From Fibrobacterota bacterium (GTDB taxonomy: Bacteria; Fibrobacterota; Fibrobacteria; UBA11236), in the NCBI GenBank assembly GCA_043753995.1, contig JAYUVP010000068.1:1-23490 (forward strand): a DNA stretch of 23,490 bases, in the 5' to 3' direction. This document shows, in pieces, positions 3,430 to 23,490 of this stretch (position 1 is the stretch's first letter; each line of letters begins with the position of its first letter). The notes under the pieces are model-generated. The model did not search any database, was not told the DNA's origin, and worked only from the letters and a program-made list of their open reading frames with translations. The translations under genes and the position numbers were made by a program.

Positions 3430-3570
3430 GATGGGTGCGCAAAGTACCTCGAACGGCTCCAAAAGCGTCGTAAAACCCGTCTTTGTCTCCACCGTGCGGC
3501 AAACCAAATCTTGCTATTTCGTCACCAAGGTTGCGGCCGACTTTCACCTCCCTGACGGCCCATTTTACCC

Positions 3571-6504: not shown

Positions 6505-6529
6505 AGCCAAGGGCTAAGGGCTAAGTCCC

Positions 6530-9176: not shown

Positions 9177-9932
9177 ATGGCCCGCACATTTAAAATCGAC
9201 ATGGAAACGCGCTTTGGTCCCTTGCGCGGTGCCTTGCCCCTTCCGGACGCACCGATGCGATTGGCAGAATTCGCGCATCAGCTTTTCCCTCTGTCGGAAC
9301 GCATCACCCAGCAAGCCGTAGACGCCGCTATTTCGGATGGCGAAACGAAAATTTCTTGTGGCCCTGGCTGCGGTGCCTGCTGCCGGCAAGCCGTGCCCCT
9401 TTCCATCCCCGAAGCCTTTTTCTTGCGCGATCTCCTCTTGTCTTTTCCATTGGCGCGCCGTGGAGAAATTCTCGGACGCTTCGAAAGCCTGCAGAAAAAT
9501 CTGAGCGAAGCAAATCTCGAATTGGAATTGCTGGCAGGAGAAACTCAAGATCAGCGTTGGATGCGATTTGGTTCTCGCTATTTCTCACTGGGCATGGCTT
9601 GTCCTTTTCTCGAAAACGAATCCTGCTCCATCCATCCCGTGCGCCCGACGGTGTGCCGTGATTTTCTCGTGACCTCGCCGCCCGAAGAATGCGCCGACAT
9701 CACTTCGGAAAAAATGGTGTGCATCGACAATGTTTTCAGCCTTCCCCATTGCCTGGCTCGGCTCACCGGCATTCTCATGGACGAAGAGCCACAACTCATT
9801 CCCATGCCCTTGGCCCTGGAATGGGCGGAAGCCCATCCCGAATGGAATCAAAAACGTTTTGACGGGGCCATGCTCTATTCGACTTTATTCGACATCGTGA
9901 AATCACTCTCCGATGCGGGGCGCAGCGCTTAG
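9177..9932 (+). CDS. YkgJ family cysteine-cluster (Zn/Fe-S chelating) protein
   Basis: CGPGCGACC ... CPFLENESCSIHPVRPTVCRDF pattern. Starts 15 nt after the GH-A gene on the same strand. Confidence 0.88.
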   Translation: MARTFKIDMETRFGPLRGALPLPDAPMRLAEFAHQLFPLSERITQQAVDAAISDGETKISCGPGCGACCRQAVPLSIPEAFFLRDLLLSFPLARRGEILGRFESLQKNLSEANLELELLAGETQDQRWMRFGSRYFSLGMACPFLENESCSIHPVRPTVCRDFLVTSPPEECADITSEKMVCIDNVFSLPHCLARLTGILMDEEPQLIPMPLALEWAEAHPEWNQKRFDGAMLYSTLFDIVKSLSDAGRSA

Positions 9933-9985: not shown

Positions 9986-10095
9986 GGGGGATGCCGAGGC
10001 CGACAATGCGGCGTAGTAAGTCGGGCCGAGGCAGGGGGGCGTTTGGATGGCGCGGATCGAGGGCTGAGCCCCCCGTCACAGGAAGGTTACCCTAG
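9986..10095. repeat. Dispersed structured intergenic repeat, copy 1 (110 bp)
   Basis: GGGGGATGCCGAGGCCGAC-N17-CGGGCCGAGGCAGGGGGGCGTTTGGATGGC...GAGCCCCCCGT-N9-GTTACCCTAG, matching 16440-16550 and 20009-20119. Confidence 0.92.
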
Positions 10096-10685
10096 GGATG
10101 GCCCTTGTCGGGCGTCGCCTTTCGTCCAAGAAGTCCCCTGGGCTGGTTGATTTGAGGTGCGGAAATTTTGTGGGTTTGTCTCGCTTTGGATATTCGGCGA
10201 TCGCGTACCGAGGTCGATGTGGCGGATACAACTGTATCGAGAATACCTTGAGCTTTGGATTCTTTCAAAGACATGGTGCCGGTGCAAAGCCCCGTCCATA
10301 GCACCGAATCCTCTTGTACTTGGTAAGGGAAAACCAAATAATCGCTGTCGATTTGAAATCCATAACCGCAAGACGCGCTGCTCATGGCGGACTTGAGGAT
10401 TATTTCGCGGCTTTCCGAGAGACCTTTGATGGCATGAGTGACTTGAAGCGTGTATCGGATGGGCGAATCGGATCGGAAGAGGATATTGCCATTGGCGTCT
10501 TTGACTATGGGAGGCTGTTCAGCCTTGACCACCTTGGCCGTGAATATCATGGAGGCTTTGCGCGCATGCGCGGCCCAATCCTGAATACCCATACAACTGC
10601 AGGACCAAGCGGCGGGCGTCAAGGCCAAGGTGGCGGAGAATATTCCAATGGGCCACGAGCGAAGTAAGCGGGACAAGGTTTTCAT
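10092..10685 (-). CDS. Secreted TIMP/NTR-like (netrin module) domain protein with basic C-terminal tail
   Basis: From ATG 10685: signal peptide ending AAWS, then CSC. Pattern A..IFTAKVV...YTLQVTHAIKG...SCGYGF....YLVF...LCTGT with four Cys. The stop TAG lies within the CTAG of repeat copy 1. Confidence 0.7.
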   Translation of the reverse strand: MKTLSRLLRSWPIGIFSATLALTPAAWSCSCMGIQDWAAHARKASMIFTAKVVKAEQPPIVKDANGNILFRSDSPIRYTLQVTHAIKGLSESREIILKSAMSSASCGYGFQIDSDYLVFPYQVQEDSVLWTGLCTGTMSLKESKAQGILDTVVSATSTSVRDRRISKARQTHKISAPQINQPRGLLGRKATPDKGHP

Positions 10686-10838
10686 GCTTGGAATGATAGG
10701 CATTTCCCTGGGGGCACTTGGGATTGGGTTTCGGCGCTCCGCTACAGGAAGTCCCAAAAGTGAGACGCGTGATCTTTCCCAAGGCTTGGAAAGGGAACGG
10801 GTATCGCTTCAAATAGAGCCATTTCGATAGTTGCTAAT

Positions 10839-10854
10839 GGGCATGCGGATTGCA
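10839..10854 (+). promoter_or_regulatory. Putative sigma-54 (-24/-12) promoter
   Basis: GGGCATGCGGATTGCA has GG(10840-41)-N10-GC(10852-53), close to the consensus TGGCACG-N4-TTGCW. It is followed by an AGGAG RBS (10873-77) and ATG 10883. Confidence 0.6.
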
Positions 10855-10882
10855 TTGAGACAAAGAGACTCTAGGAGTACCT

Positions 10883-12562
10883 ATGCCAGCTCCCCTTAAA
10901 ATCCTGACCTGTTTGCTATTCGCCACCTTGCCCGTCATCGCGGACCAATGGGCAGAATTTTCTTGCCGGGCCACCCAAGGCCTTGGGTGGCAGGGATCCT
11001 CTCAGGTCATTCGTGAGAAAATTGCCATCACCGTGCAGCCGGATCATCTAGACGTGGAACATGAGCTCGAAATAGACGCTAAGACAATAGCGAGCACGAA
11101 CGCGCCGAATTCCCCGAGCTCCCTGGAAATAACCGGTCGGCTCACTATGGCTGACGGCACGGTGATGACCGGATTGCTGCTTTGGAATGGCGACAAGATT
11201 CTCAAGGGCAAGCTCCAGACCAAGGAAATGGCGAGGAGGAAATATGAGGAAGTGGTCGACCGCAATGTGATCAATCCACCCCCACCTCGCGATCCTGCTT
11301 TGTTGGAGAAGGTGAGTGGTTCCAGGTATGCCCTCAGCATCTTTCCCGTCACTTTAAACGAGTCGCGCAAGCTTCGGCTTCGCTACCTCATTCCCACAAG
11401 ATTTGAGGACAGCACCCAGCGTTGCTCTTTTCCGCATGCATTTTCAAAAATTGCTTCCGTCACGATACGCTTTGGTTTGGGTATTCAGGGCTATGCCCTG
11501 ACCTCGTACCGGCATGATTTTAGCTTAAATACGGTCAAGAATGAAGCGGGAAGCTCTCAGCCTTTAACCTTGGATCCCGATGCCTACTTTCATTTTAGGC
11601 CCAACTTCCATGGGGAAGGAAGTGGTGCAGCTTTGCTCTACGTCACCCCGCTGTTCGGGGAATCGAATGGCTCCCGCGCCTATTTAGGATCGTCGAAAGA
11701 TGCCCTTGGGACCCAAGGGCATGCCGCGCATTTTGTCTTTCGCCCGCCTAAGGATTTATCAGGGATGAACCCAGCGAATACAACCCGGATTGTGGCCTTG
11801 GTGAGGTCGGGAAACGATTCGGTTGGAAAAGAAATCGCCCTGGATGAAAGGGCGGCCTTGGGCATCGAAGAGTTGCGGATTTTTTCAGCCTCGGCCCTCA
11901 CGGAAGGCATTACTTGGAGATTCTATCAGGGAGATAAGATTGCCAAGGAGATGATTGAAAAGCCTCGGGTCATTGTCATGGAAGATGGCCCTCAATTTGT
12001 CCGGACTTTCGGTCATACCGCTTTTTATCCTCTGGTCAAAACCATGCCCGCCTCCCTTGCCGCCGCTTGGGGATTCATCGATTCCAAGTATGCCCTGCTG
12101 GCTCTCGAACAAGACACCCTCCCGTCGGCGCAGGCGAAAGAGTATGCGACAGCCGGCGTACCGGGCCTGAATCGCAGTGATATTTTCCCCGAGGATGGGG
12201 CCCTGGAAAGCACTCCCTTATCGGCTTGGTTGATGCAAAGAAATATCGCACGGGAGGATTTGCTTGTCCCCACTCCTCGCTCCGTATCCTTGAATAATTC
12301 GTTTAGCCTCCCTGCGGGGATACGCTGGAGCTTTCGCGACGGGGCCTTGCATGTCGAGATCGATCCCTCGATGAGAGCCAGAGGCTTGCGCGTGACCTTG
12401 CATGGCCTCGATGGCCGACGGCTTCAGCAATGGCAGGGCGGTGAAATCGGTGGCGGACTTATCCAGTGGTCTCCCAAGTCCCATGGATATGGCTTTGGAA
12501 CTTGCCTGCTCCGCATCACATCAGGCACCCATACCTGGTCTGCCCGGGTGACACTTCGGTAA
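10883..12562 (+). CDS. Secreted VIT (vault protein inter-alpha-trypsin) domain protein with T9SS-like C-terminal domain
   Basis: Signal peptide and strong RBS. VIT motifs LEITGRL...GLLLW...LKGKL...ARRKYEEVV...RDPALLE...LSIFPV...RKLRLRY. The last ~80 aa 'LRVTLHGLDGRRL...IQW...GTCLLRI...SARVTLR' resemble a Por/T9SS sorting domain. Confidence 0.75.
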   Translation: MPAPLKILTCLLFATLPVIADQWAEFSCRATQGLGWQGSSQVIREKIAITVQPDHLDVEHELEIDAKTIASTNAPNSPSSLEITGRLTMADGTVMTGLLLWNGDKILKGKLQTKEMARRKYEEVVDRNVINPPPPRDPALLEKVSGSRYALSIFPVTLNESRKLRLRYLIPTRFEDSTQRCSFPHAFSKIASVTIRFGLGIQGYALTSYRHDFSLNTVKNEAGSSQPLTLDPDAYFHFRPNFHGEGSGAALLYVTPLFGESNGSRAYLGSSKDALGTQGHAAHFVFRPPKDLSGMNPANTTRIVALVRSGNDSVGKEIALDERAALGIEELRIFSASALTEGITWRFYQGDKIAKEMIEKPRVIVMEDGPQFVRTFGHTAFYPLVKTMPASLAAAWGFIDSKYALLALEQDTLPSAQAKEYATAGVPGLNRSDIFPEDGALESTPLSAWLMQRNIAREDLLVPTPRSVSLNNSFSLPAGIRWSFRDGALHVEIDPSMRARGLRVTLHGLDGRRLQQWQGGEIGGGLIQWSPKSHGYGFGTCLLRITSGTHTWSARVTLR

Positions 12563-12717
12563 ACCGAGACCAACCCCCGCGGGCCCTAGCCGGAATGTGA
12601 TTTTTAGACGTGCCATGGGGTTTTCTGACCTTCTGACATGGGGATTCAAACAATCGGATAGCCTCCAAGTGCTAGGTTTGAGCTAATATCAATTTCCTTT
12701 TAGGGGGGTATTCCGAT

Positions 12718-14139
12718 ATGAAGCAGCCTATCACCAGCGCCAGCAATTCCATTACGCTTCGCGTCAAGCTCTCCAACCTTCCAGGTGTGCTCGGCCATTT
12801 GACGGCCGCCATTGGGGACGCAGGCGGCAATATCGGCGCCATCGATATCGTGCGAAGAGAGGGCGCCTTTCTGGTTCGCGATATCACGGTCGAGACCTCG
12901 GGGGCGACTCATGCGGAGACCATTGCCGAGCGCGTGCGCGCCGTGGAGGGTGCGGAATTGGTGCAGGTTTCGGACCGAACCTTCCTGCTTCATCTCGGCG
13001 GAAAAATCGCCATCACAAGTAAGATTCCCCTGAAGACCCGCGATGAATTGTCCATGGCCTATACGCCTGGGGTTGCCCGGGTTTGCAATGCTATTCATAA
13101 GAATCCCGAGTCCGCCTTTAATCTCACCATCAAGCGCAATTCGGTCGCCATTGTCAGCGACGGATCGGCCGTGCTCGGCCTCGGCAATCTCGGGCCCTTG
13201 GCCGCCATGCCCGTGATGGAAGGCAAGGCCATGTTGTTCAAGACTTTTGGGGGCGTGGATGCTTATCCGATTTGCTTGAACACCCAGGATCCGGATAAGA
13301 TCATCGAAATCGTGCAAAATATCGCACCTGGATTTGGCGGCATCAATCTCGAAGACATTTCCGCGCCCCGCTGCTTTGCCATCGAGAAGGCCTTGCAAGC
13401 CACCATGGACATTCCCGTTTTCCACGACGACCAACATGGCACGGCCATCGTATTGACTGCCGCCTTTCTCAATGCTCTGGTTGTCTTAGGGAGAAAGGCC
13501 GAAGACTTGAAGGTGGTAGTACTCGGCATTGGCGCGGCGGGAACCGCTTGCAGCTTAATGCTGCATGAAGTGGGCGTGCGCAATATTATCGGCTGCGACC
13601 GGCAGGGAGCGATTTACAAGAGCCGACCCGACATGTCCGCGGAAAAGGCGGAGTTCGCAGCTTGGACCAATCCTAATAATGAGAAGGGCAGCATCACCGA
13701 ACTGCTGCGCGGCGCGGATGTTTTCATCGGCGTCTCGGGGCCGAATCTCGTGACGTTGAAGGATTTGAAAGGCATGAACAAGGACCCCATGGTCTTCGCC
13801 ATGTCCAATCCCGATCCGGAAATCGATCCCGAGGAAGCCCGCGAAGTGGCCGCCATCGTGGCGACGGGGCGCAGCGATTATTCCAATCAGGTGAATAATG
13901 TGCTTTGCTTCCCCGGCATTTTCCGCGGCGCTCTGGATTGCCAGGCCCGAGAAATCAATGGCGCCATGAAATTGGCGGCGGCCCGCGCCATTGCCGGGGT
14001 TATCCCCAGGGAATCGTTACAGGCGGAATACATTATCCCGAGCGTTTTCGATCCCAATGTGGTGTCGGCGGTGGCCAAGGCCGTGATTCAAGCCGCCCAG
14101 GAAACCGGCGTTGCCCGCAGGCTCATCCGGGACGCGTGA
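12718..14139 (+). CDS. NAD(P)-dependent malic enzyme with N-terminal ACT domain
   Basis: ACT motif [20 protein letters not shown]. Malic enzyme motifs [68 protein letters not shown] and [23 protein letters not shown]. Confidence 0.95.
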
Positions 14140-14223
14140 GTTCAGGGCTTGGAGCGAATTGGGTTGCCCGCACGAAGCCCGAATGCTTGGGAAATGGGAG
14201 CTGAAATGTTACTTCGCGTGGGA

Positions 14224-15903
14224 ATGAAAGCCCGGGCGACGGTCATTTCCATTTCTCTTGTTCTTGCCGCCCTTTCTTGGATCGGTTGCGATCGGAAACC
14301 GAACCCTAACTCCTCCGCTGAATCCCACTTCGGGAATCCTGTTCAGTTGGTCTCTCCAGACCAGGGACAGCTCACCGGCATTGCCTATGGTGCCGGTCGC
14401 TTCTGTGCCGTGGGCACCCAGGGACTCGTCTTCGTTGCCGAAGATGGGAAGAAGTGGCGGCAAGTGCGGAATGCCATCCAGGAAGATTTGCGGCAGGTCT
14501 TTTATCACAAGACCTGGGATGATACGGGAGCGTCCTTTGGCTCCTTCGTAGCGGTCGGGGCCAGCGGCGCGCTCTATGGCGATCAGGGCAAAGATGCCTG
14601 GAAAATCTTGTCGCCCTCTCGGGAAGGGCGCTTCTTGAGGCTGTATCATCCCACCGGGAAATGTTCGGGAGCCTTGCTGGATTCCGGCGTCCTACTCCAC
14701 GCCTCCCCAAGCAATGAAGAGAATACCGAATCATGGTCGCGCACCTATATGCGCACTAATGTGACGCTTGAGGCGGCGTGCTCGGGAGGTGGACCGCTCG
14801 GATCATTCGTGGCGGTGGGGCCACGAGGGACTATTGTCTCGCTTGCAGATTCGGAAATCGTACTCTACAACTTTGCCTTCGCCCTGCGAGAAACACCCAC
14901 CCGAGTGGATTTACACGGTGTTGCCTGGGCGGGGGACAAGTTCGTCGCCGTTGGAGATTCGGGAATCGTCCTCTCCTCCGCGGATGGGGAGCATTGGGAG
15001 AAGGAGTCCTCGGGCATTACGGGAGCAATACGCGGGGTCGCGTCCGGAATAGGAATGTGCATAGCCGTCACGGAAAATGGAATATTGGCAAGGAAGGCGC
15101 TATCGGTGGCGGACCCGGACACCCTCCCGGACCAAGACCCGCTCGCGCTAGGACTTTGGCTGTCTCCGGATTCCATCGCTTTCCAGGTGGGATGGATGGA
15201 TGCCAAGCAGGATACAAGCCGGGTCTCTCTCCTTGTTTCCCCCCGTGCAGACAATTGGGATACGAAGCTGCCAAAACTGCCGCCTTGGGGAGATCGTCTC
15301 AAGGATTTCATACCCTATGGCTGGAATATCTTTAGTCTAGACTCTGGCGATCTCAACCAAGACCATAGCCAGGATTATGCGTTCATCATCGAAGGCGATG
15401 AAACGGGGCTCCGTGATTCCATGCCGTGGAACGAGCCCTTTGACTGGACGGGTCACCGGATTTTGGCCGTCGTCTTAGGAATGGGAAGCGGGCATGAAGG
15501 CGGGAAAGGCTACCGCCTGATTCAACAATGTGATACCTGCATCATTCCACAGTATGATCAACGGATGGGGCAGGACATCTATGATGAGGGAGGCCCATTT
15601 ATCAGCAACGATACTCTAACCATCCAATCCCACGGGGTATCCATGGGAGGATGGGAGGACTATTTTCAATCGTACCACTTCAAATACATGGGCGGAACCC
15701 TTCGCCTAGTCGCGGGGGTGAGATCGAGCTCCCACAGGACGACAGGGGAATACGAGAAAAGATCGATGGATTTTTTGACGGGAGTCCTGCGGGAAGAAAA
15801 AGGAAGCGAGGGGTCGGATATTCCGGTGGCCCCAACCTTCACCTTGGATACCCTTCCCATTTCGGAGATCCGTAGTTTCGAGAATATGAAAGAGGAATGG
15901 TAG
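14224..15903 (+). CDS. Putative lipoprotein with an N-terminal WD40/YVTN/BNR-like beta-propeller and an uncharacterised C-terminal domain
   Basis: From ATG 14224: MKARATVISISLVLAALSWIG|C lipobox-like signal. Repeated F[VC]AVG..G.[IV]....DG..W blades. The C-terminal part contains DFIPYGW...GDLNQDHSQDY (DxxDG-like Ca-binding loop) ...SMDFLTG. Confidence 0.65.
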   Translation: MKARATVISISLVLAALSWIGCDRKPNPNSSAESHFGNPVQLVSPDQGQLTGIAYGAGRFCAVGTQGLVFVAEDGKKWRQVRNAIQEDLRQVFYHKTWDDTGASFGSFVAVGASGALYGDQGKDAWKILSPSREGRFLRLYHPTGKCSGALLDSGVLLHASPSNEENTESWSRTYMRTNVTLEAACSGGGPLGSFVAVGPRGTIVSLADSEIVLYNFAFALRETPTRVDLHGVAWAGDKFVAVGDSGIVLSSADGEHWEKESSGITGAIRGVASGIGMCIAVTENGILARKALSVADPDTLPDQDPLALGLWLSPDSIAFQVGWMDAKQDTSRVSLLVSPRADNWDTKLPKLPPWGDRLKDFIPYGWNIFSLDSGDLNQDHSQDYAFIIEGDETGLRDSMPWNEPFDWTGHRILAVVLGMGSGHEGGKGYRLIQQCDTCIIPQYDQRMGQDIYDEGGPFISNDTLTIQSHGVSMGGWEDYFQSYHFKYMGGTLRLVAGVRSSSHRTTGEYEKRSMDFLTGVLREEKGSEGSDIPVAPTFTLDTLPISEIRSFENMKEEW

Positions 15904-15913
15904 CTTGAGGCCT

Positions 15914-16438
15914 ATGACAAAACCATTTCCCATCCTGATCGCCTTCGCGCTTGCCCTTGCTCCCGTTCTCGCCAAGGACGCTTCGGCGGGGAATTCCGAT
16001 TGGAAATCCGAAAAGGATTTCCGCAATGCTGCCCCGATGATTCACCGTCAAGCGCTTTGGCTCGAAGCGAATCCCGGTGCGGATACATGGAGTGATAGCT
16101 TGAAGACTGTTCTCTCTTGGGGGCGCGCTGCGCCTTATGTCAGGTTGGGCACGGCCAAGGTATTTGAAAAAGAAATCCAGAACCTGCCCAAGGATCCCGA
16201 TGCGGGTCGCGTCGCTAGCATGCTGAGGGTGGGCTATGTGCGTTATGCCACCGAAGCCGATTTCGACACGCCTACGGAATTCGAGATGGCCAAGGCTGGT
16301 GTCACCTGCATGATACGCTATTATGAAAACCTGCAACAGGCCAAGCCTGAGTATTCCATTCCCGCCATGGAACGCCTGGCAGGCCTACTCCGCTCGGACG
16401 CCCTCGACGAATTCATCAAAGACAAACTCAAGAAATAA
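15914..16438 (+). CDS. Secreted alpha-helical hypothetical protein
   Basis: ATG 15914 preceded by GAGG, signal peptide MTKPFPILIAFALALAPVLA, helical charged composition, 10 nt downstream of the lipoprotein gene. Confidence 0.75.
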   Translation: MTKPFPILIAFALALAPVLAKDASAGNSDWKSEKDFRNAAPMIHRQALWLEANPGADTWSDSLKTVLSWGRAAPYVRLGTAKVFEKEIQNLPKDPDAGRVASMLRVGYVRYATEADFDTPTEFEMAKAGVTCMIRYYENLQQAKPEYSIPAMERLAGLLRSDALDEFIKDKLKK

Positions 16439-16439
16439 C

Positions 16440-16550
16440 GGGGGATGCCGAGGCCGACCGTGCTGCAGGGGTAGGCGGGCCGAGGCAGGGGGGCGTTTGG
16501 ATGGCCAGGATCGAGGGACTGAGCCCCCCGTATCTTGTAAGTTACCCTAG
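16440..16550. repeat. Dispersed structured intergenic repeat, copy 2 (111 bp)
   Basis: Same conserved blocks as copies 1 and 3. Fills essentially the whole gap between TAA (16436-38) and the minus-strand TAG (16547-49). Confidence 0.92.
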
Positions 16551-18487
16551 TCGGGTAAATTTTTCCCAAGGGCATCGCGTAACCTTGCGGTTTTCTCTTC
16601 CCCAACGGGGGTGAAGGCGATGCGGCCTCGAGCCTGGTGAAAACCTCGGGAAGGGCTATGGGCACGGGAGCGGGCCGAACGTGGGGCGATGGAATTCAGT
16701 CCCCAGTCGGATAGGGAGCGTTTCCAAATGCCGCCCGCGCCGACGAAAAGAAAACCATCCTGGATATGCATGGACACCACGGGGTGGAGCGGTGGCAGAC
16801 CTTCATTGACAGCAGTCCAGGTGACGCCCTTGTCGCGCGAAAGGGTGATGCCCGAATCGGAGGCGGCGAAGACCGCGTCCTTATAAATGAGGAGACCCAT
16901 TAAATGGCTGACGGAATTGCCATCGAGGGTATGGGTCCAGGTGGCGCCTCCGTCGGTGGAACGGTATAGGCCATCCAAATATTTACCGGCGAATAGGGTA
17001 TCGCCCGTCGCGGCAAGCCTATCTATTCCGAGCGGGGGGTTATTCGAAGGCACAAGTTTCCAAGTACCCTCAGCGGAGTCGAACTTGGCGACGCCCAAAG
17101 CGGTGCCGCCGAAAAGCCCGGCCTTTGTTTTCGCCAGGCTACGTATCCCCAGAGTTACCCCATCCTTCATCGATTGCCAGGTGCGACCCGAGTCTTGCGA
17201 GCGGAAAAATCCGCCGGTATCCGAGTTCAGGAAAAGGTCGCCACCCACCACCGAAAAACCTGAAAACTTTCCGCCCGGCCAGGGCGTCCATTTTTCCCAA
17301 GTGTTGCCGAGATCGGAGGAGCGAAAGAGTTGGTCGTGCTCTAACACGGTGATGGCAAATTGGCCCAAGGCGAAAACCATATTGGGGATGCTTTTGAATT
17401 TCGCTTTACTCGACAAATAAGTCCAGTGGGATCCAGAATCCCTGGTGGCATAGAGGCCTTCATGGGTTGCCGTCAATAGGCGGCCTGGCCCGAATTCAGC
17501 CATCGCGAGAGCCGGTCCACTTCCGAGGCCAGTATTCACGCCATTCCAAGTCGCGCCCTGATCGCCCGAACGATAAACACCGTGCACCGTGGCGGCGAAT
17601 AAGGCATTTCCCAGGGGGAGAATGTCGCTGACAAAGGAGGTATTTCTCTCGTTGAAAAAGGAAGAATCCCGTGTCCAGGTCATCCCATTGTCCGGGGAAC
17701 GAAAAAGGCCATCCTCATTGTTCATGGCGAATAGCCGATTGCCCACGGCATTGAAGGAATAGAATGCGGGATTCTCGACTCCGGGATCCAACTGGATCCA
17801 ATGGGCGCCATTATCCGCGGAGCAATACAAAGCGTAAAGGGAACGCGCGAACAAAAATTCCTCATTGCGACTCACGCCAACCATCACGGTGTCCTTCGCA
17901 TCGGGATCGGACCGGGACCAGGTAGCGCCGTCGTCCAAGGATCGATAGAAGCCGGACTCGGTGGCCGCAAAAATCATGAGCCCGGATGCGGCCACGCCGA
18001 CGATCGGTCCCGTGAGGCTCACGGGAGTGATCCGCGTCCAATGCGCGCCCTTATCGCGGCTGCGATAGATGCCACCCTCCAGGGTTCCGGCCAGCAGGGC
18101 ATCGCCCGCGAAGCAAAGGGTCATGACCGCAGTATCGGTCAGGCCCGTATTGACGCGTAGGAAGGGCGAACTTTCTCCGGCGCGGGCCCAGACCCCCCGC
18201 GACGAACCGAGATAGACCGCGCCATTGCGGGCGGCCAGGGAGGTGGGTATCCCGTATTTGAAATCCAGCCACGACTCATAGTCTTCCCAAGTCTCGCCTC
18301 CGTTGCGAGAAAGGCTGGCACCGGTACTGTGGATGATGTGTAGATCGGCTCCATCGACGGCCATGCCAAGTATGCGAGGGCCAGCAGGACCATTGGTGGG
18401 AGTCCAGGCCGCGGAAGCGTAAGCAGGAAGCAGGGCGGCGAAAATCAATATCGAAGAAAACGTGCCTCGGATCATGGATAGGAGCAT
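16547..18487 (-). CDS. Secreted BNR/Asp-box repeat beta-propeller protein (YCF48/VPS10/GH74-like fold) with basic C-terminal tail
   Basis: About 11 S/T-x-D-x-G-x-[TH]-W Asp-boxes (e.g. SRDKGAHW, SLDDGATW, SPDNGMTW, STDGGATW). Signal peptide ending AYASA. Ends RDALGKNLPD. Start uncertain (18511 GTG, 18487 or 18475 ATG). Confidence 0.8.
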   Translation of the reverse strand: MLLSMIRGTFSSILIFAALLPAYASAAWTPTNGPAGPRILGMAVDGADLHIIHSTGASLSRNGGETWEDYESWLDFKYGIPTSLAARNGAVYLGSSRGVWARAGESSPFLRVNTGLTDTAVMTLCFAGDALLAGTLEGGIYRSRDKGAHWTRITPVSLTGPIVGVAASGLMIFAATESGFYRSLDDGATWSRSDPDAKDTVMVGVSRNEEFLFARSLYALYCSADNGAHWIQLDPGVENPAFYSFNAVGNRLFAMNNEDGLFRSPDNGMTWTRDSSFFNERNTSFVSDILPLGNALFAATVHGVYRSGDQGATWNGVNTGLGSGPALAMAEFGPGRLLTATHEGLYATRDSGSHWTYLSSKAKFKSIPNMVFALGQFAITVLEHDQLFRSSDLGNTWEKWTPWPGGKFSGFSVVGGDLFLNSDTGGFFRSQDSGRTWQSMKDGVTLGIRSLAKTKAGLFGGTALGVAKFDSAEGTWKLVPSNNPPLGIDRLAATGDTLFAGKYLDGLYRSTDGGATWTHTLDGNSVSHLMGLLIYKDAVFAASDSGITLSRDKGVTWTAVNEGLPPLHPVVSMHIQDGFLFVGAGGIWKRSLSDWGLNSIAPRSARSRAHSPSRGFHQARGRIAFTPVGEEKTARLRDALGKNLPD

Positions 18488-18542
18488 AGGAAAATCCAGG
18501 CGCCTCGCCACGTTGTCATTTCATTCGGGGGCCGGAGCGCCT

Positions 18543-19169
18543 TTAGGGTGCGGAGGCGGGCATCTCCACGAGATTCACCACCGACGCCCAGAAGTCCAGG
18601 GGTGACTGTTCGGGGGGCGTGGCCACCAGTTTCTCCAGGGCGAGATCGGCGGCGCCGTGCACTAGGGACCAGTGGGCGAGAGTCAAAATCGATGCCTCCA
18701 TGCCGGGTCGCCAACCTTCGGCTTGGCAGCGCACGATCTGGCGCTCCAGCAATTGGAACGAGTCATAGGCCTCGGGGCAAGGCAAATCGGCTGAGAGGGA
18801 TTTCCCTTTGCCGGAGAACAAGAGCCGGTACATGCCAGGGCGGGCCAGGGCAAAACCCACATAAGCCCGACCCATGGCACGCAGCCCTGAAAGACCCTCG
18901 GGGGAGCCATCAAGCGAGCGTTCGAGCTCTTGGTACAAGTCTTTCCAGCCGCGGTCTATCAGTGCCGTAAGCAAGGAATCGCGATCCGGAAAATGCCGGT
19001 AGGGCGCGGTCTTAGAGACTCCGGCGCGCGCAGCCAGATCACGCAGGCTAAGGGTTGCGGCTCCTTTGGATTCAAGGTCGATGAGGGCCAGATCCAGCAA
19101 TTCTTCGCGCAGTTTGCCATGGTGATAAGGCTTGGCCGGAGCGCGCACCGATTTCGAGGGAGAAGCCAT
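18543..19169 (-). CDS. TetR/AcrR family transcriptional regulator with WHG-type C-terminal domain
   Basis: YHHGKLREELL, HTH LSLRDLAARAGVSKTAPYRHF, GRAYVGFA..RPGMYRLLF and WSLVHG. Confidence 0.93.
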   Translation of the reverse strand: MASPSKSVRAPAKPYHHGKLREELLDLALIDLESKGAATLSLRDLAARAGVSKTAPYRHFPDRDSLLTALIDRGWKDLYQELERSLDGSPEGLSGLRAMGRAYVGFALARPGMYRLLFSGKGKSLSADLPCPEAYDSFQLLERQIVRCQAEGWRPGMEASILTLAHWSLVHGAADLALEKLVATPPEQSPLDFWASVVNLVEMPASAP

Positions 19170-19183
19170 GCGGAAAAATTAGT

Positions 19184-19232
19184 GTTGGCAGCGCCAACTT
19201 TGGAGGGTAGGTTATGTAGGCATTGCCAACAT
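19184..19232. promoter_or_regulatory. Two palindromic operators (GTTGGC-N3-GCCAAC) overlapping a putative sigma70 promoter
   Basis: GTTGGC-AGC-GCCAAC (19184-98, perfect) and ATGTAGGCA-T-TGCCAACAT (19214-32, one mismatch). TTGGCA (19185-90)-17 bp-TAGGTT (19208-13) points toward the oxidoreductase gene. Confidence 0.75.
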
Positions 19233-19283
19233 GTCCTTGACATTCCCCGCGGCCCGAAGCGTCGCTCCTGGAGACACCCCACC

Positions 19284-19871
19284 ATGACAAAACCCACTCG
19301 TATCCTCGTGCTGGACGGCCACCCCAATGACGAGAGCTTTTGCCGCGCCCTAGGCGAGGCCTATGAGCGAGGTGCGCTGAAAAGCGGTGCCGAGGTACGC
19401 CGCACCGTGCTCGCCCATCTCGCTTTCGATCCCATACTCCACCAGGGTTTCCAGAAGCGCATGGACTTGGAGCCCGACCTCCTCAAAGCGCAGCAAGACA
19501 TTCTCTGGGCCGACCATCTTGTGGTGATTCATCCGGTATGGTGGGGCACCTATCCTGCTCTCCTCAAAGGTTTCTTCGACCGCGCCTTCCTGCCGGGTTT
19601 TGCCTTTCGCTACCGGCCCAATAGCCCTTGGTGGGACAAGCTCCTCACAGGCCGCTCAGGCCATATTATCTACACGGTGGATCAGCCCCTTTGGTATTTG
19701 CGCTTCGTGAACGGACGCCCCTCCGAACTCTCCCTGAAGCGCATGATACTCGGGTTTTGCGGAATAGCACCGATTCGCGCGACGGGCATCACTCCGATAC
19801 GCGATTCAACGGAAGCCTTCCGCACGAAGTGGATCGCGAAAATCGAGGAATCGGGACGGAAGCGACGTTAG
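19284..19871 (+). CDS. NAD(P)H-dependent oxidoreductase, flavodoxin-like fold (NQO/KefF/MdaB-like)
   Basis: ILVLDGHPNDESFC, LEPDLLKAQQDILWADHLVVIHPVWWGTYPALLKGFFDR, PGFAF and LLTGRS. GGAG RBS at 19270-73 before ATG 19284; the track's longer start at 18930 overlaps the TetR gene. Confidence 0.92.
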   Translation: MTKPTRILVLDGHPNDESFCRALGEAYERGALKSGAEVRRTVLAHLAFDPILHQGFQKRMDLEPDLLKAQQDILWADHLVVIHPVWWGTYPALLKGFFDRAFLPGFAFRYRPNSPWWDKLLTGRSGHIIYTVDQPLWYLRFVNGRPSELSLKRMILGFCGIAPIRATGITPIRDSTEAFRTKWIAKIEESGRKRR

Positions 19872-19996
19872 AAGCCATCTCAAAATGGCTGGTCCACAAT
19901 GAGGGCGGAATGCAACCCGCCTGGCAAGGCACGAGGAGCGTCGCTTACCGGGAGTATGCAAGCGACGAGGAACGAAGCCAGGTGGGCTGCATTCCG
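19872..19996. repeat. Long nested palindrome (possible MITE/palindromic-element remnant or structured RNA)
   Basis: 20-bp outer arms 19906-25/19977-96 (2 mismatches), 8-bp perfect inner arms CGTCGCTT 19939-46/AAGCGACG 19960-67, and a small AGCCAT/ATGGCT hairpin at 19873-90. Confidence 0.6.
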
Positions 19997-20008
19997 GCCG
20001 AATGACGA

Positions 20009-20119
20009 GGGGGATGCCGAGGCCGACCGTGCTGCGGTGCAATGCGGGCCGAGGCAGGGGGGCGTTTGAATGGCCTAGATCGAGGGGCCGAGCCCCCCGT
20101 CCTTTGCGGGTTACCCTAG
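20009..20119. repeat. Dispersed structured intergenic repeat, copy 3 (111 bp)
   Basis: Same conserved blocks as copies 1 and 2. Ends 2 bp before the minus-strand stop of the hybrid kinase (20122-24). Confidence 0.92.
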
Positions 20120-20121
20120 CT

Positions 20122-21759
20122 TTACGCTGATTTAATGAGTTGTCGCGTGCAAGCTTTGGACAGGGCCTCAGCCAATTGATTGCTGGAAAAAGGCTTGCGC
20201 AAGTATTGCACTTCCCCGCTTTGCACCAGGGGCAGGACGGCGTCGCTTTCATTGTATCCGCTGATGAAAACCACGGGCAAGTCGGGCTTGATCGTGCGCA
20301 AATCTCGAAAGAGTTCCACGCCCGATTTTCCGGCCAGCATGATGTCGAGTACGGCGGCATCCATGGGCATGGCATTCATTTTTACGAGGGCATCCTCGGC
20401 GCTAGAGGCCAAATGCGTTTGATAGCCGCGGCCTTGCAGCATGATTTCGAGGGCTTGCAATATGCCCATTTCGTCATCGACCACCAGCACGCGCAAGCTG
20501 GGTGGCTCAGGAGGAAGGACAGGCGATTTTCTTGAGGTTATGCCGGTAGGGGAGGGGATAAAAGAGGATTCCGGCACCGGGCGAAGGGTTCGCGAGGTAA
20601 CACTTGCGTTAACCTGCTTTTCACTGGCCACAGGTATCCACACTTCGAAGGCGGTGCCGCCTTGGGGAAGACGCAGCACGCGCAAACTGCCTTTATGCGA
20701 ACGCACGATGCCCAGCACCGAAGCGAGGCCGAGGCCCCGACCCGTGGACTTGGTGGTGAAGAAGGGGTCGAAGATTCGGGTCAATAATTCCTGGGGAATG
20801 CCACATCCGGTATCGGCGACTTCGAGCACGACATAATGTTTTTCGCTGAGGGGGATGGCGAAGCCTTGGGTGCTCCCGGAAAGGGGGCCCGCATCGCGCG
20901 GCTCGGCACGCAAGGTCACCGTCCCTTCGCCCACGATGGAGTCGGCGGCATTGTTGAGGAGATTCAACATGACCTGCCGCATCTGGGTAATGTCACCTTT
21001 GATAGAAGGCAAGGATTCCGGCAGGTAAGAAACCAAATGAATGCGGCGGGGAATGCCCACGCGACAAAAATCCATGGTCTCCTTCGCCAAGTCGGCGATG
21101 TCAAGGCTTTGTTGGCTAAATCGCGCACGCCCCGAATAAGCCAGCATTTGCGCGGTCAAATCGGCGGCTCGCTCCGTGGCTTGGTGTATGCAAGCCAGGT
21201 AACGCGCAAGATGCGAGGAGTCGAGGACTTGCTTTTGGGCCAATTCGGCATTGGCCAAAATGATGCCGAGAATATTGTTGAAATCATGGGCGATGCCGCT
21301 GGCCATGAGGCCCATGCTTTCGAGACGCTGGGTTTCGAACAGTCGCGCCTGCATGCGCGAATTCTCGCTCAGGATACGACCACGCTCTAAGGCATTGCGC
21401 AGGGTTTTTTCGAGCAAAAAGGGCTCGATATGATCTTTCACCAGATAATCGCTGGCGCCCAGGGCGATGGCTTGCACGCCTAAGCGCACGTCTTCCTTGC
21501 CCGAAAAAAGCACCAGGGGCCGCAAGCATCCATTTTCAATGGCCTTGCGTATTAAATCGGACCCGGATTGCGGCCCGAGATAATGATCGACCAAGGCGAT
21601 GTCAAATTGGTTTTCGCAGGCCGCCTTCAAGCCCTCGTCATATTGGGTGACCCATTGCAAATCGACTCGGAGATCGGGAATCGAATCAAGGTTGTTTTGC
21701 AAAATATCGGCATCCATCCTGCTGTCGTCGATCAAGAGAAGCTTTAACGATTCAGCCAT
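20122..21759 (-). CDS. Hybrid sensor histidine kinase/response regulator (REC-HisKA-HATPase-REC), cytoplasmic
   Basis: N-terminal REC (LLIDDS...FDIALVDHYL...GASDYLVK), H-box SGIAHDFNNIL, N-box QVMLNLLNNA, DTGCGI, FDPFFTTK, GRGLGL, and C-terminal REC (VLVVDDE...LDIML...ISGY...KPF). Confidence 0.93.
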   Translation of the reverse strand: MAESLKLLLIDDSRMDADILQNNLDSIPDLRVDLQWVTQYDEGLKAACENQFDIALVDHYLGPQSGSDLIRKAIENGCLRPLVLFSGKEDVRLGVQAIALGASDYLVKDHIEPFLLEKTLRNALERGRILSENSRMQARLFETQRLESMGLMASGIAHDFNNILGIILANAELAQKQVLDSSHLARYLACIHQATERAADLTAQMLAYSGRARFSQQSLDIADLAKETMDFCRVGIPRRIHLVSYLPESLPSIKGDITQMRQVMLNLLNNAADSIVGEGTVTLRAEPRDAGPLSGSTQGFAIPLSEKHYVVLEVADTGCGIPQELLTRIFDPFFTTKSTGRGLGLASVLGIVRSHKGSLRVLRLPQGGTAFEVWIPVASEKQVNASVTSRTLRPVPESSFIPSPTGITSRKSPVLPPEPPSLRVLVVDDEMGILQALEIMLQGRGYQTHLASSAEDALVKMNAMPMDAAVLDIMLAGKSGVELFRDLRTIKPDLPVVFISGYNESDAVLPLVQSGEVQYLRKPFSSNQLAEALSKACTRQLIKSA

Positions 21760-21864
21760 GGGATCTCTCCAACATTAAGGAATTACCTTAGTCACTCATT
21801 TTACAACCAAACCCTGCCAATAAGTCAAGACTCGGTTAAATATTATTCAAAGCCCGGAGAATAC

Positions 21865-23103
21865 ATGCCCGATTTTTTGGCGAATCTCAGGTTTTGGCCA
21901 TTTTTCAAAAAAAACACGGATAAGCCCAGCTATCAAGATTTAAAGCAGACCCATGAGAAGTTGGAAGCCTTGCTGCGCGAGCGAGAGGCCGCCGGCGAGG
22001 AGCGCTTTCGCCTTGCCCTGGAAGCTTCGCCGAATGCCATTCTGGTCGCCGATGCCCAGGGATGCATTGCCTTCGTGAATGCCCAGACGGAATCGATGTT
22101 CGGCTATGCCAGGCAGGAATTACTCGGGCAGCCTCTCGAAATGTTGGTGCCTCCATCGGCTAGGCGCGTCCACGGTCAGCACGTGCAGCATTTCCGAGAA
22201 GATCCACAAATGCGCGCCATGGGCGCGGGCCGCGAAGTGAGAGGATTGCGCAAGGACGGTAGCGAATTTCCCGCTGAAATAGCCCTGGGGCCTTTTCGCT
22301 ACGAGGGTCGCCTCAATGTCATCGCCTTTGTCGCCAATATCAGCGCGCGTAAAACCGCCGAGGAGCGCATTCACCGCCAAAGCGGCGACCTCGAGCGATC
22401 GAATCAGGACTTGGAATCCTTCGCCTATGCCGCCTCCCATGATTTGCAAGAGCCGCTGCGTGGCGTGCTCGGCTATTTGCAATTGCTGGAACGCCAATTC
22501 GGTCCCGATTTGCCTCCGAAGGCGCAGCGCTATTTGGCCCAATCCTTGGAGTCGGGCGGTCGCATGAAATCGCTCATGGACGCCTTACTGCATTATTCCC
22601 GAGTGGGTCGCCCCATGGAGGCCGAAAACATCGACGTCAATTCCCTGGTGCAGGAGGTACTGCGTGATTTGCATGCCGCTATCGCTGAGTCGGGCGCCAA
22701 ATTCACTTATGATCCTTTACCGCAAGTGCATTACAATGCCAGCGAATTGCGGCAAGTCATGCAAAATCTCCTGAGCAATGCCATTAAATTCCGAGGGTCC
22801 CGGGCTCCGGAAATTCATATTGGTTGCCGCCGTGACAGTCCCGAAAACGTGTTCTTCGTCCGCGACAATGGCATTGGTATTCCCCTGGATTATCAAGGCC
22901 GCCTGTTTCAGCTTTTCCAACGCCTGCACGCGCGCGCAGCCTATCCCGGGTCGGGCATAGGCTTGGCCATGGTGGCCAAGGCCATTCGCAGCCAAGGCGG
23001 CCGCATCTGGGTCGAATCCGCCCCCGAACAAGGCAGCACTTTTTTCTTTTGCTTAGGTACTGAAGCTCCTGTGGAATCCAAAATCCAAGAGGCAGATCCA
23101 TGA
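21865..23103 (+). CDS. PAS-domain sensor histidine kinase (Cph1-like kinase core), cytoplasmic
   Basis: PAS/PAC (LEASPNAILVAD...FVN...MFGY...GLRKDGSEFPAEI), H-box FAYAASHDLQEPLR, QNLLSNAIKF, VRDNGIGI, FQRLH and GSGIGLA. Confidence 0.93.
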   Translation: MPDFLANLRFWPFFKKNTDKPSYQDLKQTHEKLEALLREREAAGEERFRLALEASPNAILVADAQGCIAFVNAQTESMFGYARQELLGQPLEMLVPPSARRVHGQHVQHFREDPQMRAMGAGREVRGLRKDGSEFPAEIALGPFRYEGRLNVIAFVANISARKTAEERIHRQSGDLERSNQDLESFAYAASHDLQEPLRGVLGYLQLLERQFGPDLPPKAQRYLAQSLESGGRMKSLMDALLHYSRVGRPMEAENIDVNSLVQEVLRDLHAAIAESGAKFTYDPLPQVHYNASELRQVMQNLLSNAIKFRGSRAPEIHIGCRRDSPENVFFVRDNGIGIPLDYQGRLFQLFQRLHARAAYPGSGIGLAMVAKAIRSQGGRIWVESAPEQGSTFFFCLGTEAPVESKIQEADP

Positions 23104-23490
23104 CCACAGCCACCTCTCCAGTCACAAAACAAAAGCATTTGCTCCTCATAGAAGACAATCCCGCCGATGTGGAAATGGTCATGGAGTGGGCCCAGGAAAC
23201 GAATTTTCCCATGACGGTCGGCAGTGTCGAGAACGGCGAATTGGCCCTCGCCGAGCTGGAAAGCGAAGGCGTGATTTTGCCCGATTTAATATTGCTCGAT
23301 ATCAATTTACCCCGCACTTCAGGGTTGGACCTTTTGCAAACCCTGAAAAATGACCGGCGCCTTTGCAAAATCCCGGTCGTGATGCTGACCAGTTCCTCGG
23401 CTCCAGACGATATCGAACGCAGCTATCGCTCCCATGCCAATGCCTATGTGCAAAAGAGCGTGGATTTGAAGGCCTTTTACAAAGCCCTCA
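23100..23490 (+). CDS. Single-domain response regulator of the Rcp1 type, truncated by the window edge
   Basis: Not in the ORF track. ATG 23100 overlaps the kinase stop (ATGA). Reads MTTATSPVTKQKHLLLIEDNPADVE...PDLILLDINLPRTSGLDLL...IPVVMLTSS...SYRSHANAYVQK... Confidence 0.92.
   Translation, partial: MTTATSPVTKQKHLLLIEDNPADVEMVMEWAQETNFPMTVGSVENGELALAELESEGVILPDLILLDINLPRTSGLDLLQTLKNDRRLCKIPVVMLTSSSAPDDIERSYRSHANAYVQKSVDLKAFYKAL

What the first reader, a model, noticed from the sequence alone, without database searches (positions are those of the whole stretch)
9986..20119. Three copies of a 110-111 bp structured repeat, each at a tail-to-tail junction and docked on a stop codon
Seen: copies at 9986-10095, 16440-16550 and 20009-20119, all in the same orientation. 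Consensus GGGGGATGCCGAGGCCGAC-N17-CGGGCCGAGGCAGGGGGGCGTTTGRATGGC-N3-GATCGAGGG-N2/3-GAGCCCCCCGT-N9-GTTACCCTAG. The variable segments keep exact length (17 and 9 nt) while their sequence differs. The conserved blocks can pair: TGCC-GA-GGCC with GGCC-GA-GGCA (tandem GA internal loop), GGGGGGC with GCCCCCC, and possibly the 5' GGGGGAT with the 3' GTTACCC to close a junction. Three of the four convergent junctions in the window carry it. In copies 1 and 2 the terminal CTAG contains the TAG stop of the minus-strand gene; in copy 3 it is 2 bp from the stop. Inference: a REP/MITE-like family or a conserved 3'-UTR RNA or ssDNA structure (terminator, processing or protein-binding site) that inserts at or is retained at CTAG/stop codons. 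I do not recognise it as a named family, and no transposase or RAYT gene is in the window.
Basis: partly seen in the sequence, partly recalled or inferred. Interest (0 to 1): 0.78.

Follow-up and report, generated by a model that had tools for sequence, protein, structure and literature searches.

The report
Stop-codon-docked intergenic repeat family
Three near-identical 110-111 base repeats sit between genes that end facing each other, each touching the stop codon of one gene; they look like a new, lineage-restricted relative of the small hairpin repeats (REP-like elements) known from other bacteria, and their function is not established.

Summary
Three same-strand copies lie at 9986-10095, 16440-16550 and 20009-20119. 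They score 131-137 bits against their own model, and the next best site in the window scores 9.3 bits. They occupy 3 of 4 convergent gene junctions and 0 of 12 other junctions. The terminal CTAG supplies the TAG stop of the minus-strand gene in copies 1 and 2. In copy 3 it lies 2 nt past a TAA stop, in frame.

Substitutions are sharply clustered. About 85 columns are almost invariant, while the fixed-length 9-nt segment is only about 33% identical between copies.

The structure claim is only weakly supported. Two hairpins are predicted in every copy, but folding energy is no better than for shuffled sequence, and 0 of 25 pairs show compensatory change.

There is no Rfam match, no plasmid or phage match, no terminal inverted repeat, no target duplication and no transposase in the window. 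The invariant 18-mer core gave only chance hits in 185,579 representative genomes. One more copy was seen elsewhere, as a translated ORF.

Best reading: a new, narrowly distributed REP-like dispersed repeat, retained under selection at gene 3' ends. How it spreads and what it does are inferred, not shown.

The parts
9986..10095 (+). Repeat copy 1 (110 nt). It lies 53 nt after the stop of gene 9177-9932(+), and its last 4 nt overlap the stop of gene 10092-10757(-).
   Evidence: 131.1 bits
16440..16550 (+). Repeat copy 2 (111 nt). It fills the whole spacer: it starts 1 nt after the TAA of gene 15905-16438(+), and its last 4 nt overlap the stop of gene 16547-18511(-).
   Evidence: 137.4 bits
20009..20119 (+). 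Repeat copy 3 (111 nt). It lies 137 nt after the stop of the flavodoxin-like gene ending at 19871(+) and ends 2 nt before the TAA of gene 20122-21759(-).
   Evidence: 134.7 bits
16446..16487 (+). Hairpin 1 in copy 2. The arms are 16446-16455 and 16478-16487, giving 4+4 pairs split by a symmetric GA/GA internal loop. The apical 17-nt variable segment is 16459-16475. The same feature lies at 9992-10033 in copy 1 and 20015-20056 in copy 3. The two arms are also a direct repeat of the octamer GCCGAGGC, 32 nt apart start to start.
   Evidence: Predicted in the MFE and centroid structures of all 3 copies. All 8 pairs are invariant.
16488..16529 (+). Hairpin 2 in copy 2. It is a 7-bp G/C stem (16488-16494 with 16523-16529) around a 28-nt loop. 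The loop holds invariant unpaired blocks and two short variable patches. The same feature lies at 10034-10074 in copy 1 and 20057-20098 in copy 3.
16532..16540 (+). The 9-nt variable segment of copy 2. The matching segments are 10077-10085 in copy 1 and 20101-20109 in copy 3. Pairwise identity is 0.33 in all three comparisons, and the length is invariant.
10092..10095 (.). Terminal CTAG of copy 1. The complement of 10092-10094 is the TAG stop of gene 10092-10757(-).
   Evidence: The 61%-identical ortholog P0125 ends at the same alignment position.
16547..16550 (.). Terminal CTAG of copy 2. The complement of 16547-16549 is the TAG stop of the BNR/sortilin-like gene 16547-18511(-).
   Evidence: The orthologs P0005 and P0006 run 7 and 9 aa further, with unrelated tails.
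20116..20124 (-). Terminal CTAG of copy 3 plus the stop of the hybrid histidine-kinase gene. The minus strand reads TAA AGC TAG.
6505..6529 (.). The fourth convergent junction, which has no repeat. It is a 25-nt spacer holding an ordinary 7-bp hairpin that overlaps the TAA of gene 6530-7564(-).
   Evidence: The model scores only 9.3 bits here.

Best explanation
This is a new, narrowly distributed family of small non-autonomous dispersed repeats of the REP/BIME class. Each copy is 106-111 nt long and holds two different G+C-rich imperfect hairpins. It has no inverted ends and no target duplication.

Shown:
- Copies sit only in the spacers between convergent genes.
- The CTAG end lies on, or 2 nt from, the stop codon of one gene.
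- Each copy keeps about 85 positions unchanged, while the loop and linker segments of fixed length have drifted to near-random.

Inferred:
(a) The family spread by insertion next to a (C)TAG at gene ends, as single-stranded DNA handled by a tyrosine HUH enzyme (RAYT or IS200/IS605-like TnpA) encoded elsewhere in the genome. Read on the minus strand, the layout is CTAG, then a 17-nt spacer, hairpin 2, hairpin 1 and a 6-nt tail. This is the layout of elements that insert 3' of a short target without duplicating it.
(b) Resident copies are kept by the host as a 3'-end module, for example a transcription barrier or mRNA-end protection between convergent genes. That would explain why the blocks are under purifying selection at every locus.
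For: REAL FAMILY, SHARP EDGES. Three copies score 131-137 bits against 9.3 for the next best site. There is no similarity outside the edges.

POSITION. 3 of 4 convergent junctions and 0 of 12 others carry a copy. The right end lies at -3, -3 and +2 nt from the minus-gene stop. The left end lies 53, 1 and 137 nt from the plus-gene stop. Only the CTAG end is anchored.

STOP POSITION AT COPY 1. The gene docked to copy 1 ends at the same alignment position as its 61%-identical ortholog, 4 residues after a shared PD. The stop there is probably ancestral rather than made by a truncating insertion.

NO ENDS, NO DUPLICATION, NO TRANSPOSASE. There are no terminal inverted repeats or duplications. No transposase family was found in 79 of 79 ORFs of at least 80 aa. 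This fits mobilisation in trans by an HUH-type mechanism.

SELECTION. Variable columns are clustered (3 of 100,000 shuffles). The blocks are 100% identical, while the 9-nt segment is 33% identical.

FOURTH COPY. P0002 is a 160-aa ORF on a 27,472-base contig from NCBI. Its first 31 residues are a translated copy. At the amino-acid level it differs only in the loop and variable parts and keeps the stem-coding parts.

PRECEDENT.
- The termini of GTAG-tagged REPs often provide the TAG stop codon to flanking ORFs, and REPs lie mainly between unidirectional and convergent ORFs (PMC3733652; passages and section 16 read).
- E. coli REP stems carry a conserved internal mismatch that their TnpA needs. 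Recognition is of one DNA strand only (PMC8266576; passages read). The invariant GA/GA loop in hairpin 1 is the same kind of feature.
Against: - No copy number, empty site or associated enzyme could be examined, so mobility is not shown at all.
- The CTAG could belong to the element or to the target. The 3 copies cannot tell these apart.
- CTAG alone is not a sufficient target: 18 of the 21 CTAGs in the window carry no repeat.
- The gene docked to copy 2 is 7-9 aa shorter than its two closest orthologs. This fits an element-supplied stop as well as a pre-existing one.
- Young mobile copies should be uniformly similar. Here the variable segments are saturated, so recent transposition is not indicated.
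- The hairpins are no more stable than in shuffled sequence, and nothing covaries.
- The defining REP features are absent: 20-40 nt length, and a GTAG or CGTC tag next to the stem.
- All 54 hits of the 18-mer core in the representative genomes are chance matches. No wider family supports the classification.
Confidence: 0.42

Rival explanations
1. It is a family of conserved structured RNA elements that is not mobile. Either it is a 3'-UTR module transcribed with the plus-strand gene or processed from it, or it is a set of paralogous small RNAs. In this reading the invariant unpaired blocks bind a protein or form tertiary contacts, and the fixed-length variable segments are spacers or seeds.
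For: - Block-wise conservation with saturated, length-invariant linkers is the pattern expected of a functional RNA.
- The G-rich + strand folds 7-9 kcal/mol better than its complement as RNA. It carries the stable tandem GA loop, where the complement has a UC/UC loop.
- The same three-way fold is predicted for all copies.
- Copy 2 starts 1 nt after the stop of the plus-strand gene.
Against: - No Rfam match at E up to 1 for the window, or up to 10 for copy 2 alone.
- Folding z-scores are about 0, and 0 of 25 pairs are compensatory.
- No promoter-like site falls in or just before a copy. Copy 2 leaves no room for one.
- The tightly docked side is the minus-strand gene, whose transcript would carry the less stable complement.
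- The distance to the plus-strand stop is irregular (53, 1 and 137 nt).
Confidence: 0.27
2. It is a double-stranded DNA site for a sequence-specific host protein, such as a nucleoid, termination or replication-fork factor. The two direct GCCGAGGC octamers, 32 nt apart start to start, and the other invariant blocks would be the contacts. The pairing potential would be incidental.
For: - Invariance extends well beyond the stems into blocks predicted to be unpaired.
- The folds are not thermodynamically special.
- Strict spacing is kept.
- All 3 copies share one orientation.
Against: - No candidate protein, and no precedent found in my searches.
- It does not explain docking on the stop codon.
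- 85 constrained positions is long for a binding site.
- Three copies in one orientation is expected by chance 1 time in 4.
Confidence: 0.1
3. It is a classical cut-and-paste MITE, or the solo end of an IS (IS5/IS1182 with a CTAG duplication, or IS110/IS1111).
For: It has a CTAG terminus, a small size, and no coding capacity conserved across copies.
Against: - The two ends are not inverted repeats of each other.
- No CTAG or any shared duplication is present at the 5' flank in 3 of 3 copies.
- No transposase in the window.
- The variable segments do not match their own flanks better than the flanks of other copies (longest shared words 4-7 nt in both). This argues against guide-like loops of the IS110 kind.
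Confidence: 0.06

Closest known systems
GTAG-tagged REP elements and their RAYT/TnpA(REP) enzymes (Di Nocera et al. 2013, PMC3733652; Corneloup et al. 2021, PMC8266576)
   Same: - G+C-rich imperfect palindromes with a conserved internal mismatch.
- Located downstream of genes, mainly between unidirectional and convergent ORFs.
- A terminal TAG that often serves as the stop codon of the flanking ORF.
- No inverted ends, no target duplication, and no enzyme gene nearby.
   Different: - REPs are 20-40 nt single hairpins with a GTAG (or CGTC) tag directly beside the stem. They usually occur in high copy number and often as inverted dimers.
- This element is 110 nt long with two unlike hairpins in one orientation. 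It ends in CCCTAG, 21 nt away from the nearest stem, and has long invariant unpaired blocks.
- Copy number and an associated RAYT are unknown.
IS200/IS605 elements and their gene-less derivatives (PATEs). Features are recalled from general knowledge. Papers appeared in the search listing only and were not read for this.
   Same: - Sub-terminal imperfect hairpins at both ends.
- No inverted ends and no duplication.
- Insertion 3' of a short fixed target, which then appears conserved at one flank only.
- Single-strand, orientation-biased transposition.
   Different: - No TnpA or TnpB nearby.
- The 4 nt just 5' of the hairpin foot, which would act as the guide, are not conserved among the copies (TGAC, ATAC and GGAC on the minus strand).
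- A CTAG target has not been reported, to my knowledge.
Bacterial MITEs from IS5-type elements (4-bp CTAG-like duplications; recalled)
   Same: Small, non-coding, intergenic, and ending in CTAG.
   Different: No terminal inverted repeats, and no duplication at the other end.
Hairpins between convergent genes that act as bidirectional terminators
   Same: Position between converging genes. The repeat-free fourth junction (6505-6529) carries a simple 7-bp hairpin in the same place.
   Different: - No U-tract after either hairpin on either strand in all copies. Only 1 of the 27 terminator-like sites touches a copy, and it depends on the flank of copy 2.
- It is far longer and more sequence-constrained than a terminator needs to be.

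Membership tests
REP (GTAG/CGTC super-families) | 20-40 nt single palindromic unit | tested here: not met
   The unit is 110-111 nt with two different hairpins.
REP (GTAG/CGTC super-families) | Unpaired GTAG or CGTC tetranucleotide directly at one end of the stem | tested here: not met
   The ends are a 5' G-run and a 3' CCCTAG. The CTAG is 21 nt from the nearest stem. No conserved GTAG or CGTC adjoins a stem.
REP (GTAG/CGTC super-families) | High copy number in the genome and association with a RAYT gene (REPtron) | not testable with these tools
   The window is a whole 23,490-base contig.
REP (GTAG/CGTC super-families) | Location downstream of ORFs, with the terminal TAG able to serve as a stop codon | tested here: met
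   3 of 3 copies lie at convergent junctions, and 2 of 3 supply the TAG stop.
IS200/IS605-derived element (PATE) | Sub-terminal hairpins at both ends, with no TIR and no TSD | tested here: met
   Hairpin 1 starts 6 nt from one end, and hairpin 2 ends 21 nt from the other (17 nt if the CTAG is the target). No TIR or TSD.
IS200/IS605-derived element (PATE) | Conserved short target flanking one end only | tested here: inconclusive
   CTAG is present at one end in 3 of 3 copies, and the other flank is unrelated. Whether the CTAG is target or element cannot be told without empty sites.
IS200/IS605-derived element (PATE) | A cognate Y1 HUH transposase in the genome whose IS carries the same ends | not testable with these tools
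   None in the window. The rest of the genome is not available.
MITE (cut-and-paste, DDE) | Terminal inverted repeats and a flanking target-site duplication | tested here: not met
   The ends are not complementary, and there are no shared flanking bases at the 5' side.
Any Rfam RNA family | Score at or near a family's gathering threshold | tested here: not met
   0 matches at E up to 1 over the window. For copy 2 alone at E up to 10, the only match is a 9.5-bit chance hit against a gathering score of 80.
Structured RNA or ssDNA element in general | Compensatory changes in stems, or folding energy beyond shuffles | tested here: inconclusive
   22 of 25 pairs are invariant and 0 are compensatory. 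z-scores run from -0.50 to +1.35. Three near-identical sequences cannot decide this.

The most novel reading that the evidence does not exclude
The element is a previously undescribed kind of stop-codon-seeking single-strand mobile element. It would insert immediately 3' of a (C)TAG at the end of genes, so it never breaks them. It would be recognised through two unlike imperfect hairpins, one with an invariant tandem GA loop. Each resident copy would then be kept by the host as a functional module with strict geometry and free-sequence linkers. Equivalently, it could be a new protein-bound RNA or ssDNA module specific to an uncultivated lineage related to MAGs labelled Fibrobacteres.
Probability: 0.15. 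Interest if true: 0.65.

Novelty: new variant of a known kind. Interest (0 to 1): 0.4.

Why it matters
If the docking is by target choice, this would be a clean example of a mobile element that uses stop codons as safe landing sites. That would extend what is known from GTAG REPs to a different architecture and a poorly sampled lineage.

If the copies are host-maintained, the invariant 85-nt scaffold with fixed-length free linkers marks an unknown protein-nucleic acid recognition module at gene 3' ends.

On present evidence it is a modest finding: a new local repeat family whose biology resembles that of REPs.

Tried and rejected
1. GENOME SCAN. I scanned the 185,579 representative genomes with the invariant 18-mer core. 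It returned 54 loci, one match each. By blastn, by eye and by the covariance model (best 14.4 bits, E 0.12), none holds the flanking blocks, so all are chance matches. The source genome is not in that collection.

2. PLASMIDS AND PHAGES. Distant blastn gave no match in either.

3. RFAM. Nothing. ARAGORN found no tRNA or tmRNA.

4. TRANSLATED-REPEAT TRICK. I searched a profile of the open minus-strand frame of copies 2 and 3 against 1.84 billion representative proteins. There were 3 hits. Two are long low-complexity proteins matched in 10-16 short stretches, which I reject as spurious. One (P0002) is a true further copy. The other five frames were not searched.

5. GUIDE-LIKE SEGMENTS. The variable segments do not match their own flanks better than other copies' flanks, so the idea is rejected.

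6. CODING. Variation is clustered rather than at third positions, copy 1 is frame-shifted, and no peptide is conserved across the 3 copies, so coding is rejected.

7. RECODING OF UAG. This is rejected because copy 3 has a TAA before the TAG.

8. C-TERMINUS COMPARISON AS A PROXY FOR EMPTY SITES. The copy 1 gene ends where its ortholog ends. The copy 2 gene is 7-9 aa shorter than two orthologs whose tails are themselves unrelated. Together these are inconclusive.

9. TAXONOMY. The two Atlas calls were uninformative. In the malic-enzyme search, the best named relative is a MAG labelled Fibrobacteres bacterium, at 80% identity. Seven unnamed metagenome proteins reach 89-93%.

10. FOURTH JUNCTION. 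The 9.3-bit model hit at 6499-6552 is an ordinary small hairpin, not a remnant copy.

Full report
WHAT IS THERE

Similarity stops sharply at both edges. I built a covariance model from the three copies and ran it over the whole window on both strands with filters off. It returns the copies at 131-137 bits (E about 1e-37). The next best site scores 9.3 bits. There are therefore no further or decayed copies in the 23.5 kb.

The window appears to be a whole contig. Its own proteins are recorded with a longest contig of 23,490 bases. Its less conserved proteins have nearest relatives at only 58-61% identity. The malic enzyme has seven unnamed metagenome relatives at 89-93%. Its best named relative, at 80%, is a MAG labelled Fibrobacteres bacterium. 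The host is thus an uncultivated, thinly sampled bacterium. The phylum label is only as good as that one name.

ANATOMY

Of 111 alignment columns, 24 vary. 18 of those 24 lie in two segments of invariant length, 17 nt and 9 nt. Five more lie in two short patches inside the second loop, and there is one 1-nt indel. Five blocks are identical in all three copies.

The 9-nt segment is 33% identical in every pairwise comparison, which is close to random. The 17-nt segment is 47-71% identical. The clustering is not chance: as few runs of variable columns occurred in only 3 of 100,000 column shuffles.

Copies that diverged neutrally from one source would not look like this. Either the blocks are under strong purifying selection at each locus, or the linkers differed when the copies were made.

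A fourth copy exists outside the window. I searched a profile of the open minus-strand frame of copies 2 and 3 against 1.84 billion representative proteins. This found a 160-aa predicted ORF, P0002, whose first 31 residues are a translated copy. It lies on a 27,472-base contig from NCBI. At the amino-acid level it differs from the window copies in the 17-nt segment and at two residues encoded by the hairpin-2 loop. The parts encoded by the stems are unchanged.

STRUCTURE

Two hairpins are predicted in the MFE and centroid folds of all three copies, as RNA and as DNA.
- Hairpin 1 has 4+4 pairs around a symmetric GA/GA loop.
- Hairpin 2 is a 7-bp G/C stem closing a 28-nt loop.
- A 4-bp helix between the two ends is predicted for RNA only.

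The evidence for structure ends there. Folding energies equal those of dinucleotide-preserving shuffles, with z from -0.50 to +1.35 over both strands and both chemistries. Of 25 proposed pairs, 22 never vary and none has a compensatory change.

The + strand folds 7-9 kcal/mol better than its complement as RNA and 2-3 kcal/mol better as DNA. This is mostly because GA/GA becomes UC/UC on the other strand and a few G-U pairs are lost.

Invariance also covers long stretches predicted to be unpaired, so pairing alone does not explain the conservation. The two arms of hairpin 1 can equally be read as a direct repeat of one octamer, 32 nt apart start to start.

POSITION

My gene map rests on ORFs, Pfam and homologs. 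It has 17 genes and 16 junctions. The repeat is in 3 of the 4 convergent junctions and in none of the 12 others (hand-calculated hypergeometric p = 0.007). The fourth convergent junction is 25 nt long and holds a plain 7-bp hairpin.

Only one end of the repeat is anchored.
- In copies 1 and 2, the first three bases of the terminal CTAG are the complement of the TAG stop of the minus-strand gene.
- In copy 3 the gene stops with TAA 2 nt earlier, and the TAG follows in frame one codon later.
- The other end lies 53, 1 and 137 nt from the stop of the plus-strand gene.
- Copy 2 fills its spacer completely.

The window has 21 CTAGs, against about 29 expected from a second-order model, so CTAG as such is not a sufficient address. 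However, the only two genes of 16 whose stop reads C-TAG are the two docked ones.

INSERTION OR RETENTION?

Without related DNA, I compared protein C-termini.
- The copy 1 gene and its 61%-identical ortholog both end four residues after a shared PD. This suggests that the stop position predates, or is independent of, the repeat.
- The copy 2 gene is 7-9 residues shorter than its two nearest orthologs. [quoted passage not shown] This says little.

The question therefore stays open.

WHAT IT IS NOT

- It matches no Rfam family and is not a tRNA or tmRNA.
- It is not found on plasmids or phages.
- It is not coding.
- It is not a UAG-recoding signal, because copy 3 has a TAA first.
- It is not a classical MITE. 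The ends are not inverted repeats and the 5' flank has no duplication.
- Its variable segments are not guides matched to local flanks.
- No transposase, recombinase or reverse transcriptase family is found in any of the 79 ORFs of at least 80 aa.

The invariant 18-mer core occurs 54 times in 185,579 representative genomes, once per genome. None of these sites has the neighbouring blocks. The family is therefore absent from, or diverged in, all other sampled species. The source genome itself is not in that set.

MOST LIKELY EXPLANATION

The closest described things are REP elements. From the passages and section I read of Di Nocera et al. 2013 (PMC3733652):
- REPs lie mainly between unidirectional and convergent ORFs, downstream of coding regions.

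From passages of Corneloup et al. 2021 (PMC8266576):
- E. coli REP stems carry a conserved two-base mismatch that the REP-associated TnpA needs.
- Recognition is of one folded DNA strand only.

The present element shares the location, the TAG docking, the imperfect G+C-rich hairpin with an invariant internal mismatch, the lack of inverted ends and duplications, and the absence of a nearby enzyme gene.

It fails the defining REP features that I could test. It is 110 nt long rather than 20-40 nt. It has two unlike hairpins in one orientation. No GTAG or CGTC tag adjoins a stem.

Read on the minus strand, it has the layout of IS200/IS605-type ends (recalled knowledge): a fixed tetranucleotide, a 17-nt spacer, a hairpin, a second hairpin and a 6-nt tail. 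However, the bases that would act as the guide are not conserved.

I therefore file it as a new variant of the REP-like class of dispersed intergenic repeats. I propose, as inference, spread as single-stranded DNA by an HUH enzyme encoded elsewhere, with insertion beside (C)TAG at gene ends. The copies would then be retained as a 3'-end module between converging genes. Confidence is 0.42.

The main rival is a non-mobile structured RNA family (0.27). It is favoured by the selection pattern and the better folding of the + strand. It is weakened by the missing promoter room, the irregular distance to the plus-strand gene, and docking to the gene on the other strand. A double-stranded protein-binding site (0.10) and a classical MITE or IS end (0.06) are less likely.

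WHAT STAYED UNCHECKED

I could not examine copy number, orientation statistics, empty sites, an associated transposase, or covariation. These need the source assembly and its relatives. Five of the six reading frames of the repeat were not searched in the protein collections. I did not read the supplementary files of the two papers, which list REP families by species.

VERDICT

The element is a real family, new as far as my searches reach, with REP-like behaviour, an unusual architecture and a striking selection pattern. Structure, mobility and function are all unproven. Interest is 0.40.

Noticed in passing
window 1177-2339 (within gene 316-2661, minus strand): Five direct repeats of about 270 nt, 64-78% identical over an 83-nt core. 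They correspond to tandem CarboxypepD_reg (prealbumin-like) domains of a 781-aa protein; Pfam reports 8 stretches.
   Followed up: partly
window 6505-6532: The one convergent junction without the repeat has a 25-nt spacer. It holds a 7-bp hairpin (CTAAGGG / CCCTTAG) whose 3' arm overlaps the TAA of gene 6530-7564(-). This is an ordinary counterpart of what the repeat occupies elsewhere.
   Followed up: partly
window 16542-16568: In copy 2 only, the last bases of the repeat (TTACCC) pair with GGGTAA inside the last codons of the minus-strand gene, and A-TTTTT follows. This is the single terminator-like site that touches a copy. Copies 1 and 3 have only 3 matching bases at the same place, so it may be chance.
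   Followed up: partly
window 16321-16665(-) and 19806-20375(-): One minus-strand frame is open through the whole repeat in copies 2 and 3, giving ORFs of 114 and 189 aa that overlap real genes. These are spurious ORFs, but gene callers do predict such frames, which is how the fourth copy (P0002) was found.
   Followed up: yes
window 18543-19871: A TetR-family regulator (minus strand) lies divergent from a flavodoxin-like NAD(P)H-dependent FMN reductase. The listed ORF 18930-19871 overlaps the TetR gene, and the Pfam domain starts at residue 124, so the true start is probably near 19296.
   Followed up: no
window 20122-23489: A cluster of a hybrid histidine kinase with two receiver stretches (minus strand), a PAS histidine kinase, and a response regulator that runs off the contig end.
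   Followed up: no
window 10092-10757(-): A 203-221 aa protein with no Pfam family, a signal-like N-terminus and a CSC motif. Only one homolog was found among 5.8 billion clusters (61% identity, lengths 121-387 aa searched). It is a lineage-specific secreted protein or lipoprotein of unknown function.
   Followed up: partly
whole window: The window equals a whole 23,490-base contig. GC is 52-62%. The best named relative of its malic enzyme is a MAG labelled Fibrobacteres bacterium at 80% identity. Gene 2848-3507(-) is an MntP manganese efflux protein.
   Followed up: partly
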